From the human T2T-CHM13v2.0 reference genome, Homo sapiens: a DNA stretch of 64,000 nt. A program made the translations under genes and the position numbers. Below, piece by piece: positions 9,103 through 62,621 of this stretch. The notes beneath the pieces are model-generated. The model was given only the letters and a program-made list of their open reading frames with translations. It ran no database searches and was not told the DNA's origin. How positions within the stretch are numbered: position 1 is the first letter of the stretch; every line of letters starts with the position of its first letter. The stretch lies in assembly GCF_009914755.1 (NCBI RefSeq), contig NC_060944.1, one strand, 5' to 3'.

Positions 9103-9529
9103 CAGGCCTCTTCCCTATGGAGACAGCTTCCTCACTTTGCTCCAGCTCTAAGGCTCCTCCCTCATCTGCTCCCCTGCCTGGACACTCTGCTCACCCCACT
9201 CAGGCTCTCATTCTATGCCAGTCTGCTCCTCTAGCCCCAGGGGGATGCCTTTCTCAACATGGGCAGGCTGGTCTCCATGCTATGCTGCTTCTTGCCTCTT
9301 CACTGGGCATTCTCATCTACCCCTGGCTCCAGCACACCAGGCCAGCAGCCCTCCTACAGAGACACCCTCCTTGACCTGTTCCAGCTCTGATGCCCACACG
9401 GAGCCAGCCGTGGCTCCCTTCCCCTTGGGGCAAACACCTACCTTGCTAAATGTGCCTATCTAATGGCTTTAGGACTGACTAGTTCAGTTAGTAAAGAAAA
9501 GGAGACAAAACAAGGAAGAGCTACTTTTC

Positions 9530-14509: not shown

Positions 14510-17500
14510 TTCCTGTCTTCTTATGTTAATAAGAAAAATAAAACAAAATAGTGGTAAAGTGTTGGGAAGGCGAAAATTTTTTGGGGTGGTATGGAGAGAT
14601 AATGGGCGATGTTTCTCAGGGCTGCTTCGAGCGGCATTAGGGGCGGCGTGGGAGCCTAGAGTAGGAGAGATTAAGCTGAAGGAAGATTTTGCGGTAAGGG
14701 GTGATATTGTGGGGTTGTTAGAAGAAACATTTAGAATTATTGGTGATGGCCTGGATACAGTTTTGTATGAATTGAAAAACTAAACGGAATAAGAGAAGGA
14801 GAAAAACAGGTATTAAAGGTCTAAGAATTGGAAGGACCCAGGCCATCTAATTAGAGAATCTCCTAATAAGGAGATTCAGCATAGTCCTGCCAGCAAAGAT
14901 TATTTATTTACTTTAAGAGTTAAGAGTGGCAGTTTGGAGATAGCACTAGGAGATATCAGCTGTGATGGCTTGGAGAAACAGTGTAAGCCGGCAGTGTAAA
15001 CATATTGTCTAGTCCTTTTTAAGTTAGTGGCTGAGCTTGGTGAGGTGTGTTTTTAAAAGACCTTTAGTCCGTTCTACTTTTCCTGAAGACTGAGGACTGT
15101 AAGGGATATAAAGGTTTCACTGAATACCAAGAGCCTGAAAAACTGCTTGGCTGATTTGACTAATAAAGGCTGGTCCGTTATCAGACTGTATAGAGGTGGG
15201 AAGACTAAACCAAGGAATTATGTCTGACAGAAGGGAAGAAATGGCTGCGGTGGCCTTCTCAGACCCTGTAGGCAAGGCCTCTACTTATCTAGTGAAAATG
15301 TCTACTTAGACTAAGAGGTATTTTTGTTTTCTGACTCAGGGAATGTTGAGTAAAGCCAATTTGCCAGTCCTGGGCAGGGGCAAATCTCTGAGCTTGATGT
15401 GTAGGGAAGGGAGGAGGCCTGAATAATCCCTGAGGAGTAGTAGAATAGCAGATAGAACACTGAGAAGTTATTTCCTTGAGGATAGATTTCCACGATGGAA
15501 AGGAAATGAGAGGTTCTAAGAGGCGGGCTAGTGGCTTGTACTATAGCATAGCCTGCCTTTGCTGGTGTGTGGTGATTAGGCCTGGTGGAACTACCATCAA
15601 TAAACCAAATGTGATCAGGGTGAGGAACAGGAAAGAAGGAAATATGGGGAAATGGGGTGAATGTCAGGTGGATCAGAGAGATACAGTCATGGGGGTCAGG
15701 TGTGGTATCAGGAATAATGTGGGAGGCCGGATTGAAGTCCGGGCCAGGAACAATGGTAATTGTGGGAGACTTAACAAAGAGTGAGTACAGCTGAAGGAGC
15801 CAGGGAGCAGAAAGTATATGTGTCAGGTGTGAGAAAGAAAATAGATTCTAGAAGTTATGAGAAGTGTAGAGAGTGAGTTGAGCATAGTTTGTGATTTTAA
15901 GGGCCTCTAAAAGTATTAGGGCGGCAGCAGCTGCTGCACGGAGACATGATGGCCAGCCTAAAACAGTAAGGTCAAGTTGTTTGGACAAAAAGCTACAGGG
16001 CGTGGTCCTGGTTCTTGTGTAAGAATTCTAACTGCACAGCCCTGCACTTAGGCTTTGGGTAATGAAAAGGGTTGGGATGAGTCAGGGAGAGCTAGGGTGT
16101 GGGCAGTCACTAAAGCTGTCTTCAAGGAACGGAAAGAGGAGTGGGGAAGGATTTAGGATCTATAGGGTCAGCTAGTTTTCCTTTTGTGAGTTTATGTAAT
16201 GGTTTTGTTAGGATGGCAAAACCAGGTATCTAAAGTCGAAAGTATCTAACCATGCCTAGGAAGGAAAGGAGTTGTTTTGTAGGTGTTGGGGTTTGAGAGA
16301 TCAGCTGAACACGATCGGCAGGGAGAGCACGTGTGTTTTTATGAGAATTACACTGAGATAGGTAACAGATGAGGAAGAAATTTGGGCTTGACTGAAGTAA
16401 TGGGGGCTATCTGTGAAGGCTTGCGGCAGTGCAGCCCAGGTAATTTGCTGAGCCTGGTGGGTGTCAGGGTCAGTTCAAGTGAACGCAAAGAGAGGCTGGG
16501 ATGAAGGGTGCAAAGGAATAGTAAAGAAAGCATGATTGAGATCCAGAACAGAATAACGGGTTGTGGAGGGAGGTATTGAGGATAGGAAAGTATATGGGTT
16601 TGGCACCATGGGGTGGATAGGCAAAACAATTTGGTTGATAAGGCGCAGATCCTGAACTAATCTGTAAGACTTGTTCAGGTTTTGGACAGGTAAAATGGAA
16701 TTGTAAGGAGAGTTTATAGGTTTTAGAAGCCTATGCTGTAGCAGGCGAGTGATAACAGGCTTTAATCCTTTTAAAGCATGCTGTGGGATGGGATATTGGC
16801 ATTGAGCAGGGTAAGGGTGATTAGGTTTTAATGGGATGGTAATGGGCATGTGATCGGTTGCCAGGGAAGGAGTAGAGATGTCCTATACTTGTGGGTTAAG
16901 ATGGGGGGATATGAGAGGAAGAGGCAAAGGAGGCTTTGGGTTGGGGAGAAGGGTGGCAATGAGATGTGGCTGTAGTCCAGGAATAGTCAGGGAAGCAGAT
17001 AATTTGGTTAAAATATCTCGGCCTAATAAGGGAACTGGGCACTTGGGGGTAACTAAAAAAGAGTGCTTAAAAAAATATTGTCTAAGTTGGCACCAGAGTT
17101 GGGGAGTTTTAAGAGGTTTAGAAGCCTGGCTGTCAATACCCACAGCAGTTATGGAGGCAAGGGAAACAGGCCCTTGAAAAGAAGGTAATGTGGAGTGGGT
17201 AGCCTCCATATTGATTAAGAAGGGGACGGACTTACCTTCCACTGTGAGATTTACCTAAAGCTCAGCGTCCATGATGGTCTATGGGGATTCCGAGGCGATC
17301 GGGCAGCATCAGTCTTCAGTCGCTAAGCCGAGAAGATCTGGGAAGGAGTCAGAGAGCCTTGGGCCAGAGTTCCAGGGGCTCTGGGAGTGGCTGCCAGGTG
17401 AGTTGAACAGTCTGATTTTCAGTGGGGTCCCGCACAGACGGGACACAGCTTAGGAGGAATCCTGGGCTACGGCATTCCTTGGCCTGGTGGCCAGATTTCT

Positions 17501-17996
17501 GGCACTTGTAGCAAGCTCCTGGGGGATGCAGGCCTGGAGGAATGCCTGGCCACTGCGGTTTGGGCATTTGGAAGTTCTTGTATGCTGGAGATGTGGCTGG
17601 GGTTTCTCTCAGAGTGGAGGCAAGGAATTGCAACTCAGAAATATGTTGTTACTTGGCTGCCTCTACTCTATTATTGTACACCTTGAAGGTGAGGTTAATT
17701 AAGTCCTGTGGTGGAGTTTGAGGGCCGGAATTTAATTTTTGGAGTTTTATTTAATGTCGGGAGCAGATTGGGTAATAAAATGTATATTAAGAATAAGACG
17801 GCCTTTTGACCTTTTAGGGTCTAGGCTGTAAAGCATCTCAGGGTTGCTGCCAAATGAGCCATGAACTGGGCTGGATTTTTATATTTGATGAAAAAGAGCC
17901 TAAACGCTATCTGATGTGGGATAAAGAAAAAGGAGCATTAACCTTGACTATGGCTTTAGCTCCAGCCACCTTTTTAAGAGTAAATTGCTGGGCAGG
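14510..17996 (-). mobile_element. HERV-H internal region, 5'-truncated (partial gag, pro and pol, all disrupted; no 5' LTR)
   Basis: Gag zinc knuckle CYKCQKSGHQAKEC (ORF 17349-17633). Degenerate protease FLINMEATHSTL...PLLGRDIL (16883-17242). RT motifs YRLVQDLRLIN and YSVLDLNHAFF (16475-16849). Confidence 0.92.
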
Positions 17997-18090
17997 AGAT
18001 CATGTATGGTTCTTCCAAGATTGCCAAGGTATCCTCCAACTCTCACTGGTGGTTTCGGGGCTCAATGCAGGAAATCATATTGCTGATTTT

Positions 18091-19711
18091 CTAGTCCAAC
18101 TTGCTGTTCTCTAGAAGAGAGAAGGGGTAGGAATTCAGTAGCCACACAATCTGGTAAAAACATATCCATTTAAGCATAACTAATCCTCCCAAACCCTGTG
18201 GGCAGGGATGTTTTTCTGTGGCTCAAGAGATGCCCACACAAGGATTCTCCCAGGATGTTTTAAGTTCAATGAGCAGAGACATAAATGCCAGATCTCCTAG
18301 GGTTTGGCTAAATCAAGCAGACCTACAAGAGGAGTGTGGGGAGTCTGGGGATAGGATGAAGAAGCAGAGGCCCCAGATTGGATTGGCTGGGACTGAGGAG
18401 GCATAGCATCCTGCTGTCTGTCTCCCCACAACCTAAGAGTCCATAATTTTTGAGAACTGGATGAAGAGGGAAAGGTGCTTCTTAGATCTTACCATCTTCA
18501 AGAAGCATGCAGACATTTCCGCAGAAGACATTACTGCATTAATGATGAATTTGAGATTCTGAGTGTAACTTGCAGAAGGTTCTGCCTATCAGTGAGAATC
18601 TGTGTGGCATTTCAGTTTTGGCTTTGATAAAATTGAGGAGTATATGAGCAGTAACACCCAGGAGGGTGTTTCTCACTATTATCAGCCCCTCCAATGCTCC
18701 AGGACCCACTCCATTGATTTCCCTTCTTCCTCTCCCCAGCGCAAGGATCTGGGTGGTTTTCTTTGTTGTTGTTGTTGTTGTTGTTGTTGGCTTCTGGAGT
18801 AAAGTTCCAGTCCCCAATCATCCTCCCTTCAACAACTCAGCTGCTATGACGTCACCTCTATGGAATTTAAACTCACAGAACCTGAGTTCAATTCTTAGAG
18901 CAACTAGTTCTGAGGCACTTTCTAGTCCCCCATTTTACAGGATGGGAAGAATTGAATCTCAAAGTAGGGAAAAAACTTTCCTTCCACCTTCACCTCTCCA
19001 CTTCTGGCTGAAATGGCCCTGAAAGACTCAGCTCTTCCCTACCCATATTCATCATGCAATATCTACTCACCACCTTACCTTCAATTCTTCTGAAGATTTC
19101 ACTTTTGTTATCCCAGTGGCTCCAAACTTCTCTCCATCAAGCATGCATTTTATTTCTCCTTTTTATGCCCAATGTTTTGAAATACTCAATCCTAATAAAA
19201 GGGCATGTTTCAAGAAATAATTAGTAGTCCTTTCCCAATTTGGTGTTCCTCTTTGGAACTCTTAACTGAGGACATAAACTCCTAAGTTTATGTCCTCCTC
19301 AGTTTATGAGCTAGGAACCCTCCATGCAGGCTCTGAACCTGGTGGAGCTCTTCCTTGGTAAGTGTCCTCCTAGACAAAAACTCAGTGAGGCCACCACTGT
19401 CCCCCAAACACAGATAAAAACATTGCATTACTTGCAGCATCAGGAGATCCTCAAGCCTGAGAATTAAACATTTAGTTTTCTTCAGGGATTCTGACTTTTT
19501 TAAAAAGCTGTGTTTTTATGTTGCCAGCCCCTGGCACCTCTCTGCAATAGGACTGTAAAAGTCTTTTTGTTTTCCACCCACTCTTCATTTTGAAGCCCAG
19601 CCAGAATACATACAGTAATCTGAAAATTCCATTACAGGAAAAAACTCTTTCTTTCCATTCTCCTGACACTGGCAGAACCACAATGCCAAGGAGTATCAGC
19701 AATTTGGACAT
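18091..19711 (-). pseudogene. Decayed three-exon WFDC-family gene (WFDC9/10-like; possibly the orthologue of rodent Wfdc16)
   Basis: Exon A (19711-19636) encodes MSKLLILLGIVVLPVSGEWKERVFS with a phase-1 donor T|GTAATG. Exon B (about 18655-18493) reads ...GRTFCKLHSESQIHH*CSNVFCGNVCMLLED with donor G|GTAAGA. Exon C (18110-18091) follows CTTCTCTCTTCTAG and encodes ENSKLD*. Confidence 0.8.
18763..18789. repeat. (TTG)n microsatellite
   Basis: About 9 units of ttg. Confidence 0.9.
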
Positions 19712-20239
19712 CTGAGTAAAGCTGGCAGGAGACTCAGGATTTTACCAGGCTCTGCTGGGGGTAGAAAAGGGTTCCAGATGAGGAGTTTGGAGAATGTGTG
19801 ACTCGACTCTCACTACCTTATCTGGTTCTGCCTCCTCCACTCCTCTGGCCATCACTCCCTGGGTGGGCACTGGCTTCTCACAAAGTACTTCCTTTTTCTT
19901 ATAGCTCATACACCTCTCATTGCAGAAATAAATTCTCCACACTTTTTTTTAATTTTTGAAATTTGAAAAATATACATTTGAAAAACAGAAAAGAACAAAG
20001 AGAAGTAATGAGATAGTAGTTATTCCTTACCTAGAGATAATAACTGTTGATAATTTACTACGTGTCCAGATTTTTTTACTGTATCAATACATATATCATC
20101 TGAATTTATATCTAATCTTTACCTCTACTCATATATAATCTATATATATGTGTTTTTCATCAAATATGCCTCAGATTATACATGCTGTTTCTAACTTTTT
20201 TCATTTAATCAAATATTGCAGAAATAATTTATTTTCTAT

Positions 20240-37860: not shown

Positions 37861-38016
37861 CATACATGGGTCTAACTGGGAAGGCAGAACTGGGCACCTC
37901 TGCCCATGATTGAGTGGAAACAACTGTTGGGACTGCTGAGGATTGCAATGAGAGAAATTAAGTCATAGGGAGGAAGTTAAAAAAAAATATGCAGAGCCCT
38001 CAGGTTGATGTAGCAG

Positions 38017-38022
38017 TTTATT
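38017..38022 (-). terminator. WFDC9: WFDC9 poly(A) signal AATAAA
   Basis: The plus strand has tttatt about 150 nt past the stop codon. Confidence 0.75.
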
Positions 38023-38170
38023 TGACAAAAGCTTCAGGGTAAAGAGGTCAAGGAAATAGCAGAAAGGTTACCAGCTAGAGCCAGTGGGTGTCCCAAGAAG
38101 GAAGTAGGCAGCACTCTTCTTAGACCAGATGGTCATCCTTCAGCCCACAGTAGTGATCGGCCAATAGAAT

Positions 38171-38201
38171 CTAGGGGTTTAGCATTGATTTAAGGGGCTC
38201 T
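38171..38201 (-). CDS. WFDC9: WFDC9 coding exon 3 (EEPLKSMLNP-stop); full protein 89 aa
   Basis: Acceptor TTTTCTCTTCTAG, then A GAG CCC CTT AAA TCA ATG CTA AAC CCC TAG. The three exons total 91+148+31=270 nt. Confidence 0.93.
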
Positions 38202-38722
38202 CTAGAAGAGAAAAGTTAGTCAAAAGTCAAGAATCCTGGGATAAATCCATTTCTAAAATTAATAGCATCCTAGGCCCCAGATGAAAAAGGACAGCAATTC
38301 TTCTGCTAAATCAGAAGTTACCCACTTTTAAGCAATTTCCCCCAAGAAGTTTGCCAACTGAACAGACAGATAGATACCAGGTCTCCTTGGGCCTGGCTGA
38401 GAGTAGAGCGCCCATGGAGACGCCCAACTAAGGGGTTAGTAATTGGAACTTTGGATAAAGGAGGGATGTATGAACTGTTGGGTGATATGTTGAGGGAAGC
38501 AAAGGGAACTGAATAAGAGTGAAGAAAAAAGTAGAGGACCTCATGTTGGTGTCTTGGTTTATTTTGCAGTGAGGAGCAGCCTAGGTTTGGAGATAGGAGG
38601 ACATTGTCTTTTGCTGCCTATTTCTTTAACCAGGATTTGGGTGGCTGCGGTCTTTTGAATAGTCGGTAAGGACCAGTGATGAAGCATGCCCAGGCCCTAG
38701 CCTTCCCACCCCAACCAACTCA

Positions 38723-38911
<189 letters not shown>

Positions 38912-39129
38912 TCAGACAAGAAACCTTTTCTAAGCTTAACAATCCCTTCTGAAACTTGAGCTCCAAGCCACAAAGTATTTCTCTGCCTTCCAAGAAAATC
39001 CCTTCCTCAAATTATAACCAGTGTCTTGTCACAAGACCATCCTTGCATGGCCTGTGTTCCTCCATCTACATGTCCCTACAGCATTTCAGACTCTAAAGAT
39101 AGGACCTGGGACACCCTGACCATATATGA

Positions 39130-39561
<432 letters not shown>

Positions 39562-40041
39562 ATTTTTCTCCCCTTCTATTTGTTTCCCTGATGATGCCAC
39601 CTAAGAAGTCAGTCTCTCCATAAATTTTATTTCCCTGGCCCACAACCCTCCTGCTCAGTGTCTTTGTTGTCCACATTTTCTTATCATATGAACCCAAACT
39701 TTGACCCACTAAGGAGCCTTTATTTGTCTTTTCCATTTTTCATGTTCTAAAAGACTCTTCCCCTCCAACTAAATTAACGTGTTAAATATTACCCTTTTGG
39801 CATTCATCAAAGGCTCACCCAACTGAGGCACAAAGGTTCTGAAAATATGGGCTTGGAGGGAAGCTCTGTGTTGGTTTTTCCTCTACTGGTCTGATATTGG
39901 AAAATATTATTTCCTGCTAGCTGATGGAATATAGACAAAAGATACGTTCCCTTTTCACATACCTAGTGTTGCTTTCAGAGCTGAAAGAGAAAACTTAAAG
40001 GAATTGGGAATATCTAACCTAATCTTGCTTGAATATCTCTA

Positions 40042-40371
<330 letters not shown>

Positions 40372-59970: not shown

Positions 59971-60833
59971 TGATGGGCTGCTGGATGGGTGAGGGGGAAT
60001 TGGGTAGGGGGAATGGAGGGCCTGTGTCCAGTCTGAGTAGGACCTAGGAGTTGGAAACTCTCTGCATATCCAGCTCTGACCACAATGTTGTGTAGACTCT
60101 GGACTGTCCCTAAACCATGGCCCTCCAGCCCCTTAGCTGGCCCTGGGAATAGTAATGGGAATGAAGAAGAAACCTGCATATTTTGCTGTTCCTTCTCAAT
60201 ACTTAGAGAGAAATGGCACATCCCATAGTGAAAGGCGCACCAGGGCTGAGAATCCAGTGGGGAAAGCAAGACAATTATTATTTGATTTATGCACATTTGT
60301 GAGGAGTAAAGATTCAGAAGTGGTTATGACGGTAGGTGTAGGTGTAGAATGGGTATAAGTGTAGGGAAATAGGACATAAGACAAGCAAAAGTTGGGGTAC
60401 ACAGAGCCAAGTTAAGGTTATCATCAAAGGGGCAAGGAGAGTGGTGGTGGAAAGGGAACTAAAGAAGGGGCAGGAAGACTAGAGACAGTGACAGTGAGCA
60501 GAAGAGAGGGAGAGACAAGAGGCATGTTGATCCTCATCTCTGAATTCTACTATTCAGAGACTAGGAGAGAGTTTGAAAGATGTCTCATGCTTCTTTGAGC
60601 TCTCAGGATCAGACTGTAGATTCTTTGGTGGTGACTTCACCAAGGCCATGACTAGTAAGGGAGATGGAGTTCTGATTGCTGGTGTGTGGAGAAGGTCCAG
60701 GAAGCCCAGGCATTGTGGTCTAATGGGGTAAGGTGTACAGTGGAGAGACAGGATTTAAAATATGACCAATCACTAGGATTTGGTGATGGGCAGGAAGGTA
60801 GTTCTATGAAGAAGGAATCCAGGAGTATCATGA

Positions 60834-61079
<246 letters not shown>

Positions 61080-61231
61080 GTGGGAGAGTGGGCTGGGATG
61101 TGCATCCTGCTTCCCAACTCCTCTATCCAAGACTGTGCCCACATCCGAAGCACAAGGACCTCAAGTCACCAGCATAAGAACATCAACAGGAATGCCGCCC
61201 TCTCTACTGTCTGAACCCCTTGTCCCTGTCA

Positions 61232-61330: not shown

Positions 61331-62621
61331 TTGCGTCCTGGTGTTCAATTTCTCTCCCTGGCTATGCTTCTCTACCCTCCCTCTCCCTCTTTGGCCCACG
61401 TATCCCTGCCAGCCCTCAGGATGCCCAGCCCCTTGCTGTTTTGCTCACTGAACCAGTACTCCCAGGGGGAGGAACTGCTCATGTGCAGCATCTCCTGATG
61501 CTAAGGAGAACATTTCTCACCCTGGAGTCAGAAGGACCCATTAAGCATGAGATGGGTGGCAGTTAGAACCCGAGATAAAGAGTGGGAGGCCCCCAAGCAC
61601 TGCTTTGGTCTCCTTAGCCTTGGTGCACCGCCATCCTATGCTCCCCAATCTCTCTGTAAGGTTCAGATTACTGTCTATCATTAGGATAATGAGTCCCAGG
61701 AAGTCCAGCAAGCCCAAGGCCACAAGAGAGTGAGAGGATATGATGTGACTGGAAGAGGGTGTTTCCTCTAGGATCACTTTTTCCTCACTTCTCTCCATTA
61801 CCTGAGACCAGAGGCATCCTAGTGAGAGTGAGTGCCTGCACCAACCCCAAAGCTCCTCCTATCCAGCACCCACCAATATGGCTACTCCTCTGATGGGACC
61901 CATTTTGGGCCTCAGGATCTGACACTCCAGCACCTTCCATTAACTGAATAGTCCTTATCTTTCCCAAGCCCTCTTCCTTAGGGGCTGGTTCATTCTCTTT
62001 TCTTTAGATCAAGAGGAACACTAAGGGATGTGGAACAGGTGGTTCATGCTGCTGTTGCTAAGGAGTAATTGGCACAGAGTGGCTATGGGTCTTCCCTGTC
62101 ATCCTACTGTGAGTTGGTGGAAATTAATCAGTGTGGTACAGAATCTCCCACTCTGCAATCGCAACTCCTCTGAAATGATCCTGGGGCTAGATCCAGGGTT
62201 GGGTCACATGTAGCTAACTGGGACATGAAGCCAAATGTGAAGAGGTTTCAGGAGGATAGGCCATGCCCAGAGGCAGGTGTGCAGTGTTATGCTCCAGTCT
62301 AGTGCTTCTTGCTGGGCCATTCAATGAAAGAGACATCAGAGAAGAAAACTTCCTTCATCAGACCAGAGGCTGTGAGCCACCTCTGAGGCATCACCGGGCT
62401 CTGGGTATCTCAGGCTTGTCTTCACCTTTCTCAAGAGCTTCCCTTGGACAAGGAGGTCTTAGGAAAGAGATCATGATCAACCATCAACACAGACACCATC
62501 AGATGTACTCTGTGGGCTGTAAGGGCATGATCTCCAAGAGACCTTATTTGGTGTTTCCTTGGATAGCCTCCCTTACCAAGCATCCTCTCAAGCCACCCCC
62601 AAACATGCCTACTAGACACTA

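What the first reader, a model, noticed from the sequence alone, without database searches (positions are those of the whole stretch)
18091..19711. Hidden three-exon WFDC-family pseudogene between WFDC8 and WFDC9
Seen in the sequence, minus strand: (A) an open signal-peptide exon, MSKLLILLGIVVLPVSGEWKERVFS, ending at a phase-1 GT like WFDC9 and WFDC10A, with TATAAGAA about 185 nt upstream (19896-19903). (B) A WAP exon whose tail G-RTF-C-KLHSE-S-QIHH*-CS-NVF-C-GNV-C-M aligns without gaps to WFDC10[28 protein letters not shown]. Three Cys are replaced (GGC, TCT and AGT, each one base from a Cys codon), there is an in-frame TAA at 18539-18541, and the first Cys (KPKLKC) is out of frame, with 20 nt instead of 24 nt to the next Cys position. 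The donor G|GTAAGA is intact but no clean acceptor AG was found. (C) A third exon after CTCTTCTAG|AGA, the same junction sequence as WFDC9 exon 3, reading ENSKLD*. Inference: this is an unprocessed, possibly unitary pseudogene. From memory, mouse Wfdc16 lies between Wfdc8 and Wfdc9 and has similar motifs. I do not recall a human annotation here but cannot check.
Basis: partly seen in the sequence, partly recalled or inferred. Interest (0 to 1): 0.8.

Follow-up and report, generated by a model that had tools for sequence, protein, structure and literature searches.

The report
Decayed WFDC pseudogene between WFDC8 and WFDC9
This is the broken, unannotated remnant of a small secreted WAP-domain (protease-inhibitor-like) gene between human WFDC8 and WFDC9, probably what is left in people of the gene that mice still have as Wfdc16; it records a gene loss and is otherwise ordinary.

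Summary
On the minus strand at 19936-18091 lies a three-exon relic laid out like WFDC9.

- **Promoter and 5'UTR:** homologous to WFDC9's.
- **Exon A (19711-19636):** starts at an ATG, looks like a signal peptide, and ends in phase 1.
- **Exon B (18621-18493):** a WAP exon.
- **Exon C:** its acceptor matches WFDC9 exon 3 over 13 bases.

Exon B is the only WAP-like hit in the window besides WFDC9 and WFDC10A. A WFDC10A-type exon-2 HMM scores it 21.2 bits; the next best place scores 4.8. An ungapped 83-nt match to WFDC10A exon 2 has 52 of 83 identities and was reached by 0 of 1000 shuffles.

The gene is dead. It has an in-frame TAA at 18541-18539, only 4 of 8 Cys in frame, and no Pfam WAP hit.

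The ~60% identity to its paralogues, non-coding DNA included, points to an old family member rather than a recent copy. Papers place mouse Wfdc16 in this same interval and report it lost in primates.

I could not obtain a Wfdc16 sequence, so orthology rests on position alone (about 0.6). RefSeq annotates nothing here. The two papers most likely to mention it, Clauss 2005 and Hurle 2007, were not readable. Interest is low to moderate.

The parts
19712..19936 (-). Promoter and 5'UTR remnant, including the TATA-like TATAAGAA at 19903-19896 and an acceptor-like ...CCCCAG|CAG near 19757 that aligns with the acceptor of the WFDC9 ATG exon
   Evidence: Sensitive blastn: WFDC9 40490-40259 matches 19936-19710, 59.6% over 240 columns, E 6.4e-5 in the 2.7-kb locus. 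TATA position read.
19636..19711 (-). Exon A: ATG plus a signal-peptide-like 25 codons plus 1 base (phase 1), followed by donor GTAATG at 19635-19630
   Evidence: It is 1 of 7 among 2424 ATGs that pass a hydrophobic-start plus phase-1-donor filter; two of the others are WFDC9 and WFDC10A. It ranks 3 of 2150 ORFs with a WFDC11-type signal-exon HMM, but E is only 0.22. Nucleotide similarity of its coding part to WFDC9 exon 1 is not significant (46 of 500 shuffles reach it).
19103..19278 (-). Intron-1 blocks shared with intron 1 of WFDC9, and partly with intron 1 of WFDC10A and WFDC10B
   Evidence: WFDC9 39834-39789 matches 19278-19232, and 39757-39676 matches 19187-19103 (E 1e-3). WFDC10A 60260-60314 and WFDC10B (L003 1883-1833) match 19237-19181. 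No other copy in the human genome by DNA search.
18493..18621 (-). Exon B: WAP-domain exon relic (129 nt against 148/149 nt in WFDC9/WFDC10A). The solidly homologous part is 18588-18506 (Cys2 position to Cys8-Met). The 5' third is too decayed to reconstruct.
   Evidence: tblastn with WFDC10A, E 7.8e-5. Family proteins reach up to 36.2 bits, 50-54% identity over 23-26 residues. HMM 21.2 bits, E 1.5e-5, third in the window. Ungapped 83-nt match to WFDC10A exon 2 with 52 of 83 identical, z 9.3, reached by 0 of 1000 shuffles. Acceptor AAG at 18624-18622 aligned to the paralogues' acceptors.
18539..18541 (-). In-frame TAA between the Cys4 and Cys5 positions of the WAP domain
18584..18586 (-). GGC at the Cys2 position. 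The other lost Cys codons are TCT 18556-18554 (Cys4) and AGT 18535-18533 (Cys6). Each is one base from a Cys codon.
   Evidence: Translation with the alignment. The codons retained are TGC at 18574, 18538, 18523 and 18511.
18607..18609 (-). TGC (KPKLKC) in another frame, the candidate for the original Cys1. It lies 20 nt before the GGC codon, where the paralogues have 24 nt.
   Evidence: (ORF 18589..18672). An alternative in-frame reading with a two-codon insertion is also possible (alignment to P0128).
18487..18492 (-). Donor GTAAGA after exon B (phase 1). If it is not spliced, the frame runs G-K-I and stops at TAA 18481-18479.
   Evidence: The read-through end resembles the end of the second WAP domain of P0090.
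18111..18309 (-). 3' part of intron 2, homologous to WFDC9 intron 2 up to the acceptor TCTCTTCTAG
   Evidence: WFDC9 38398-38199 matches 18309-18108, 62.5% over 216 columns, E 1.2e-6. This is the best non-repeat match of the WFDC9 unit among 80 masked 2.7-kb chunks.
18091..18110 (-). Exon C: reads (E)NSKLD then TAG in the frame carried over from exon B. Only the junction is homologous to WFDC9 exon 3.
   Evidence: Exon 3 and the 3'UTR of WFDC9 show no significant similarity to 18110-17900 (604 of 1000 shuffles reach the score). NCBI masks a repeat at 17999-17286, 111 nt downstream (hub table).

Best explanation
This is a non-functional, unprocessed pseudogene of a single-WAP-domain gene of the WFDC9/WFDC10/WFDC11 subfamily. 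It was once a small secreted epididymal-type protein with a signal-peptide exon, a WAP four-disulfide-core exon and a short 3' exon. In the human lineage it has lost the ability to make that fold: a nonsense codon sits inside the domain and four of the eight cysteines are gone. The divergence from all human paralogues is old, so it is a separate family member rather than a recent copy. It sits where mouse has Wfdc16. It is therefore most likely the unitary remnant of the WFDC16 orthologue, which was lost in primates.

Shown: the homology, the gene structure and the lesions.

Inferred: orthology to Wfdc16 (from position only), loss of function, and that the ancestor was secreted and epididymal.
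For: - Structure: four same-strand, collinear non-coding matches to the WFDC9 unit, covering promoter/5'UTR, two intron-1 blocks, and intron 2 plus acceptor.
- Control: among 80 repeat-masked 2.7-kb chunks of the window on both strands, the candidate chunk has the top score (42.5 bits) and is the only one with 3 HSPs of 30 bits or more.
- Paralogues: of five human paralogue units tested, only WFDC9 gives three collinear HSPs at E <= 0.05.
- WAP exon.
- Frame: exon A (76 nt, phase 1), exon B (129 nt) and exon C form one frame from ATG to TAG, with a single internal TAA.
- Lesions: TAA at 18541-18539; GGC, TCT and AGT at Cys positions.
- Selection: mismatches to WFDC10A are spread evenly over codon positions, 11, 10 and 10 of 27, 28 and 28.
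- Not a recent duplicate: about 60-63% identity to paralogues, and only a self-match in the human genome by DNA search.
- Position: mouse order is Wfdc8, Wfdc6b, Wfdc16, Wfdc9 (PMC11665854, passages). [quoted passage not shown]
- Side evidence: a bear 'WFDC9' model (P0090) carries a second WAP domain with no intact human counterpart. Its best human hit is WFDC10A exon 2, at 24.9 bits and 36% identity. Its end (E-x-G-R-I, stop) matches the human read-through E-D-G-K-I-TAA, and it has E where human has TAA.
Against: - No Wfdc16 sequence was available, so orthology is untested at sequence level. None of the 120 listed of 193 family hits was named WFDC16.
- The coding tail is most similar to WFDC10A orthologues (up to 36.2 bits). 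It is less similar to the bear second domain (23.1 bits), which is not what simple orthology to that domain predicts.
- The exon A coding sequence is not significantly similar to WFDC9 or WFDC10A exon 1. It ranks only 17 of 2150 ORFs with an all-family signal-exon HMM.
- Exon C has no coding similarity to WFDC9 exon 3.
- Pfam WAP gives no hit at E <= 10.
- The first protein search with exon B found only the window's own ORF.
- No expression or cross-species DNA data could be consulted.
Confidence: 0.6

Rival explanations
1. It is a dead, ancient tandem duplicate of a WFDC9/WFDC10-type gene that is not the orthologue of Wfdc16. For example, a copy that died early in Euarchontoglires or primates, with rodent Wfdc16 arising separately.
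For: The exon B tail is closest to WFDC10A orthologues across mammals, at 50-54% identity over 23-26 residues. The non-coding parts are closest to WFDC9. No sequence link to any protein named WFDC16 was obtained. Gene gain and loss in this locus is common (abstract and passages of PMC7556508; PMC11665854).
Against: It needs two independent events in the same short interval. The roughly 60% identity to every human paralogue means the copy is at least as old as the split of WFDC9 from WFDC10A, which score the same against each other (score 21 in both comparisons). A gene of that age in this interval is expected to be shared with rodents.
Confidence: 0.28
2. The locus is still used. It would be transcribed from its retained promoter in the male tract and make either a non-coding RNA or a short secreted peptide of about 52 residues that ends at the TAA.
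For: The TATA-like box, ATG, signal-peptide-like start, both donors and both acceptors are all still present, and the three exons keep one frame. The TAA lies 46 nt before the exon B/C junction. That is inside the 50-55-nt limit at which nonsense-mediated decay is usually not triggered; this rule is established knowledge and was not tested here.
Against: No transcript is annotated here by RefSeq (hub table). The peptide would lack the WAP fold (4 of 8 Cys; no Pfam hit). One stop in 74 codons is not unusual by chance; my estimate is about 0.14 for one or none, from 3 stop codons in 64. The acceptor AAG is weak.
Confidence: 0.07
3. It is a chance resemblance, not a gene relic.
For: Each of exon A and exon C is individually non-significant.
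Against: Exon B is an outlier in window-wide scans and in shuffles (0 of 1000). Four collinear non-coding matches to WFDC9 lie on the same strand and in the right order.
Confidence: 0.02

Closest known systems
Human WFDC9 (window 38000-40300, minus strand; same orientation, 18 kb upstream on that strand)
   Same: Same strand and the same three-coding-exon layout. The signal exon ends in phase 1. Promoter/5'UTR, intron 1 and intron 2 are homologous. The exon 3 acceptor TCTCTTCTAG|AGA is identical.
   Different: WFDC9 is intact, with 8 Cys and 6 residues between Cys4 and Cys5. The relic has the 5-residue spacing of WFDC10A, an exon B of 129 nt against 148 nt, phase 1 rather than phase 2 at the second junction, a nonsense codon and four lost Cys.
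Human WFDC10A and its mammalian orthologues
   Same: This is the closest coding match: ungapped from the Cys2 position to Cys8-Met, 52 of 83 nt and 10 of 23 residues with human WFDC10A. Orthologues reach 54% identity. Cys spacing is the same.
   Different: The signal exon is unrelated. WFDC10A ends within exon 2 and lies on the other strand, 40 kb away. Non-coding similarity is limited to one intron-1 block.
Mouse/rat Wfdc16
   Same: It occupies the same interval, between Wfdc8/Wfdc6b and Wfdc9 (PMC11665854). It is reported absent from primates (PMC6842137).
   Different: Functional in rodents: it is part of the five-gene deletion that makes male mice infertile.
Second WAP domain of the Ursus americanus 'WFDC9' gene model (P0090, residues 107-160)
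   Same: It is a WAP exon joined to WFDC9 in a carnivore and has no intact human counterpart. It has the same Cys4-Cys5 spacing, a K-P-x-L motif before Cys1, E where human has TAA, and an end of E-x-G-R/K-I followed by a stop.
   Different: Only 23.1 bits and 32% identity to the relic, less than WFDC10A orthologues give. Its genomic position in the bear was not seen. That it represents WFDC16 is my inference.

Membership tests
WAP four-disulfide core domain (Pfam PF00095) | Eight cysteines in the conserved spacing | tested here: not met
   Only 4 of 8 are in frame (TGC at 18574, 18538, 18523 and 18511). GGC, TCT and AGT stand at three Cys positions, and the Cys1 candidate is out of frame.
WAP four-disulfide core domain (Pfam PF00095) | Match to the Pfam WAP profile at or above the gathering score (20.8 bits) | tested here: not met
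   No WAP hit at E <= 10 for exon B read with X at the TAA. WFDC10A exon 2 scores 27.9 bits. WFDC9 exon 2 scores 14.4 bits, itself below the cut-off.
WAP four-disulfide core domain (descent from a WAP exon) | Significant sequence homology to WAP exons of family members | tested here: met
   tblastn E 7.8e-5. HMM 21.2 bits, E 1.5e-5, against 4.8 bits for the next best place. 52 of 83 nt ungapped, reached by 0 of 1000 shuffles.
WFDC9/10/11 subfamily gene architecture | Signal-peptide exon ending in phase 1, then a WAP exon, then a short 3' exon, on one strand within about 2 kb | tested here: met
   Exon A is 76 nt and phase 1, against 91 nt and phase 1 in WFDC9 and WFDC10A. Splice signals are present at all four sites, and a single frame runs through A+B+C. 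Non-coding homology to WFDC9 is collinear.
Unprocessed pseudogene | Introns retained, promoter region retained, and at least one disabling lesion | tested here: met
   Introns of 1014 nt and 382 nt are homologous to WFDC9 introns. In-frame TAA and Cys losses are present.
Unitary pseudogene / orthologue of Wfdc16 | Conserved position relative to flanking orthologues | tested here: met
   The human relic lies between WFDC8 (ends at 9139) and WFDC9 (from 38000), per the hub table. The mouse order is Wfdc8, Wfdc6b, Wfdc16, Wfdc9 (PMC11665854). The orientation of mouse Wfdc16 was not seen.
Unitary pseudogene / orthologue of Wfdc16 | Best sequence match to Wfdc16 rather than to other family members | not testable with these tools
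   No Wfdc16 sequence was returned by any search, and no mammalian genomes other than the human one are held.
Unitary pseudogene / orthologue of Wfdc16 | No functional copy elsewhere in the human genome | tested here: inconclusive
   A DNA search of the T2T genome with 18080-19950 found only the locus itself, so there is no close copy. A diverged functional copy cannot be excluded by that search, but no such human WFDC gene is listed in PMC11665854 or PMC11408880.

The most novel reading that the evidence does not exclude
The locus is not fully dead. Its retained promoter, signal-peptide exon and splice sites would drive an epididymis-restricted transcript that escapes nonsense-mediated decay, because the TAA lies 46 nt from the last junction. 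That transcript would yield a roughly 52-residue secreted, cysteine-poor peptide derived from a WAP gene, or a regulatory RNA for the neighbouring WFDC9.
Probability: 0.05. Interest if true: 0.5.

Novelty: new member of a known kind. Interest (0 to 1): 0.3.

Why it matters
The telomeric WFDC cluster is a fast-evolving, male-fertility-related locus. Deleting Wfdc16 to Wfdc13 makes male mice infertile (PMC11665854). A mapped human remnant of the one gene in that block with no human counterpart would do three things:
- turn 'absent in primates' into a datable loss, through the TAA and the Cys substitutions;
- help interpret mouse-human differences in this contraceptive-target locus;
- fill a gap in pseudogene annotation.

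It does not change how WFDC proteins are understood.

Tried and rejected
- **Exon B protein search:** exon B, read with X at the TAA, against 5.8 billion proteins returned only the window's own ORF.
- **P0025 group:** I suspected the 119-130-residue P0025/32/38/64 proteins were Wfdc16, because their start resembles exon A. One search named P0025's relatives as rodent Wfdc10/WFDC10A, so I dropped this.
- **Family-wide named search:** 18-sequence alignment, 193 hits, best 120 listed. No name contained WFDC16.
- **WFDC11-like proteins (P0031, P0028, P0027):** they resemble exon A weakly (20.8 bits) but gave no exon B match of 17 bits or more.
- **ESM Atlas lookup:** the bear second domain returned only generic WAP clusters, all below 0.9.
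- **Blastn thresholds:** with a strict E-value cut-off the weak collinear matches vanish. They appear only with -evalue 10, so all controls were run at that setting.
- **35-bit match of the WFDC9 unit at 30111-29990:** AT-rich and not collinear; rejected as a second relic.
- **Reconstructing the 5' third of exon B:** three incompatible alignments remain. They are a frameshift after the TGC at 18609, an in-frame two-codon insertion, and a 21-nt deletion. None could be preferred.
- **Papers not held:** Clauss 2002, Clauss 2005, Hurle 2007 and Ferreira 2013.
Full report
**What is in the sequence**

- An ATG at 19711 opens a frame that reads a hydrophobic, signal-peptide-like start for 25 codons. 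One more base follows, then GTAATG. That is a phase-1 donor, as in WFDC9 and WFDC10A, whose first coding exons are both 91 nt.
- TATAAGAA lies at 19903-19896, 185 nt upstream of the ATG.
- About 1 kb downstream, the frame containing 18574-18506 reads a WAP-domain tail with an in-frame TAA at 18541-18539.
- That tail carries GGC (18586-18584), TCT (18556-18554) and AGT (18535-18533) at three cysteine positions.
- A TGC at 18609-18607 sits in another frame. It is 20 nt before the GGC, where the paralogues have 24 nt.
- The exon ends G|GTAAGA at 18493|18492.
- A third exon begins after TCTCTTCTAG|AGA at 18110. This junction is identical to that of WFDC9 exon 3.

**Is it more than chance?**

Exon B clearly is.

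- Human WFDC10A hits 18574-18506 at E 7.8e-5 in the window.
- A profile of the WFDC9 and WFDC10A WAP exons retrieved 78 proteins from a 1.84-billion-protein library. Two named searches added more, for 195 family proteins in all.
- Searched with these 195 proteins over the whole window, 179 hits fall at this spot, the best at 36.2 bits. No other place outside the known exons shows such a pile-up.
- An HMM built from 74 WFDC10A-type exon-2 peptides was run over 1278 six-frame tiles. It scored WFDC10A 89.3 bits, WFDC9 27.4, the candidate 21.2 (E 1.5e-5) and the next best place 4.8.
- At DNA level an ungapped 83-nt alignment to WFDC10A exon 2 (60985-61067 against 18588-18506) has 52 identities. 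Its score of 21 was reached by 0 of 1000 shuffles, and equals the score of WFDC9 against WFDC10A.

**The gene around it**

A sensitive blastn of the WFDC9 three-exon unit against the candidate locus gave four same-strand, collinear matches:

| WFDC9 | Candidate | Region | Note |
|---|---|---|---|
| 40490-40259 | 19936-19710 | promoter/5'UTR | ends at the candidate's ATG |
| 39834-39789 | 19278-19232 | intron 1 | |
| 39757-39676 | 19187-19103 | intron 1 | |
| 38398-38199 | 18309-18108 | 3' part of intron 2 | runs into the acceptor |

As a control, the WFDC9 unit was compared with 80 repeat-masked 2.7-kb chunks of the window on both strands. The candidate chunk had the top score (42.5 bits) and was the only one with three HSPs of 30 bits or more. 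The WFDC10A chunk scored 41.1.

I also fetched WFDC11, WFDC10B and WFDC13 from the held human genome. Of the five paralogue units, only WFDC9 gave three collinear matches at E <= 0.05.

These weak matches appear only when blastn is run with a permissive E-value setting. All comparisons and controls used the same setting.

**Exons A and C are weaker**

- The coding part of exon A is not significantly similar to exon 1 of WFDC9 (46 of 500 shuffles reach the score) or of WFDC10A (356 of 500).
- With a signal-exon HMM from 143 family proteins, its ORF ranks 17 of 2150.
- With an HMM from 19 WFDC11-type signal exons, it ranks third, after the two true signal exons, but E is only 0.22.
- Its support is mainly positional. 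Of 2424 ATGs in the window, 7 are followed by a hydrophobic start and a phase-1 donor. Two of these are WFDC9 and WFDC10A, and one is this ATG, which sits exactly where the promoter homology ends.
- Exon C has only its acceptor in common with WFDC9 exon 3. The rest is not similar (604 of 1000 shuffles reach the score).

With exon B taken as 18621-18493 (129 nt), exons A, B and C form one frame from the ATG to the TAG at 18093-18091. The TAA is the only stop inside.

The 5' third of exon B cannot be reconstructed. Three incompatible alignments exist:
- a frameshift after the out-of-frame TGC;
- an in-frame two-codon insertion;
- a 21-nt deletion.

If the GTAAGA donor is not used, the frame ends four codons later at TAA 18481-18479.

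**What it is**

It is a dead gene.

- The WAP fold needs eight cysteines, and four are left in frame.
- Pfam's WAP model gives no hit at E <= 10. WFDC10A exon 2 scores 27.9 bits; WFDC9 exon 2 scores 14.4 bits, itself below the cut-off.
- Mismatches to WFDC10A are spread evenly over the three codon positions: 11, 10 and 10.
- Introns and promoter are retained, so it is an unprocessed pseudogene.
- Identity to every paralogue is about 60%, in coding and non-coding parts alike, and the human genome holds no closer copy. It is therefore an old, separate member of the WFDC9/10/11 subfamily, not a recent duplicate.

**Is it WFDC16?**

Papers were seen as passages only.

- PMC11665854 gives the mouse order Wfdc8, Wfdc6b, Wfdc16, Wfdc9, Wfdc10, and lists no human WFDC16.
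[quoted passage not shown] Its two held supplements contain no occurrence of the name.

So position fits. Sequence could not be tested.

- No search returned a protein named WFDC16 (in one search only the best 120 of 193 were listed).
- One lead is a black-bear 'WFDC9' model, P0090, which carries a second WAP domain. Its best match in the human genome is WFDC10A exon 2 at only 24.9 bits and 36% identity. Bears therefore have a WAP exon next to WFDC9 that humans lack in intact form.
- That domain aligns to the relic at 23.1 bits. It has E where human has TAA, and its end (E-x-G-R-I, stop) matches the human read-through E-D-G-K-I-TAA.
- Against this lead, WFDC10A orthologues match the relic better, at up to 36.2 bits, and I did not see where the bear exon lies.

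I put orthology to Wfdc16 at about 0.6, and an unrelated ancient dead duplicate at about 0.28.

**Is it known?**

- RefSeq (hub table) has nothing between WFDC8 and WFDC9.
- Full-text searches found no mention of a human WFDC16 pseudogene:
  - 'wfdc16': 7 papers.
  - 'WFDC locus' with 'pseudogene' and 'WFDC9': 0 papers.
  - 'WFDC15' with 'pseudogene': 7 papers.
  - 'unitary pseudogene' with 'Wfdc': 3 papers.
  - 'WFDC8', 'WFDC9' and 'pseudogene': 2 papers.
  - Searches found nothing further.
- The papers most likely to mention it are not held: Clauss 2005, Hurle 2007, Clauss 2002 and Ferreira 2013.
- PMC2831891 says its locus figure, drawn after Clauss and Hurle, shows pseudogenes as grey arrows. 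From memory, unverified, Clauss 2005 introduced WFDC15 and WFDC16.

Prior description is therefore possible. I rate the finding as a new, unannotated member of a known kind, with that caveat.

**Verdict**

The finding is ordinary in kind and useful for annotation and for dating a primate gene loss in a fertility-related cluster. Interest is 0.3.

Noticed in passing
window 46357-46095, minus strand (inside the long 5' intron of WFDC9): Two adjacent weak WAP-like stretches. 46357-46262 resembles the C-terminal half of rat WFDC9 (28.1 bits, 41% of 32 residues, one stop). 46223-46095 resembles the start and 'HHCSYF' part of WFDC10B-type proteins (27.3 bits). They are in the wrong order for one exon, so this may be chance or a scrambled relic.
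   Followed up: partly
window 62278-62502, plus strand (1.2 kb downstream of WFDC10A exon 2): This stretch translates to a sequence 52% identical over 75 alignment columns to the C-terminal extension of a 142-residue WFDC10A-like protein (P0188; 75.1 bits, E 2.7e-19). It suggests a conserved alternative 3' exon or read-through of WFDC10A in other species.
   Followed up: no
window 61077-61085, plus strand: The WFDC10A stop codon TGA is followed directly by GTGGGA. This lies at the position of the exon-2 donors of WFDC9 and the relic, and looks like a vestigial donor of an ancestral three-exon gene.
   Followed up: no
window 19181-19278 (relic), 39676-39834 (WFDC9), 60260-60314 (WFDC10A); L003 1833-1883 (WFDC10B): A short intron-1 block is shared by four paralogues and has no other close copy in the human genome. 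It may be a conserved regulatory element of this subfamily.
   Followed up: partly
window about 19757 (relic) and 40301 (WFDC9), minus strand: The acceptor that joins the upstream non-coding exons of WFDC9 to its ATG exon (…TCTAG|CAG) aligns with a similar …CCCCAG|CAG upstream of the relic's ATG.
   Followed up: no
P0090 (Ursus americanus 'protein WFDC9', 160 aa): This gene model fuses WFDC9 exons 1-2, a piece matching human WFDC9 intron 2 (38395-38327, 57% of 23 residues) and a second WAP domain with no intact human counterpart.
   Followed up: partly
window 18763-18789, minus strand (intron 1 of the relic): A (CAA)n microsatellite of about nine units.
   Followed up: no
window 17286-17999: A 714-nt stretch masked by NCBI begins 111 nt after the exon C acceptor. 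It has no other copy in the window and is not an Alu. The only ATTAAA signals downstream of exon C (17755, 17736) lie inside it, so the original 3' end of the gene may have been disrupted.
   Followed up: partly
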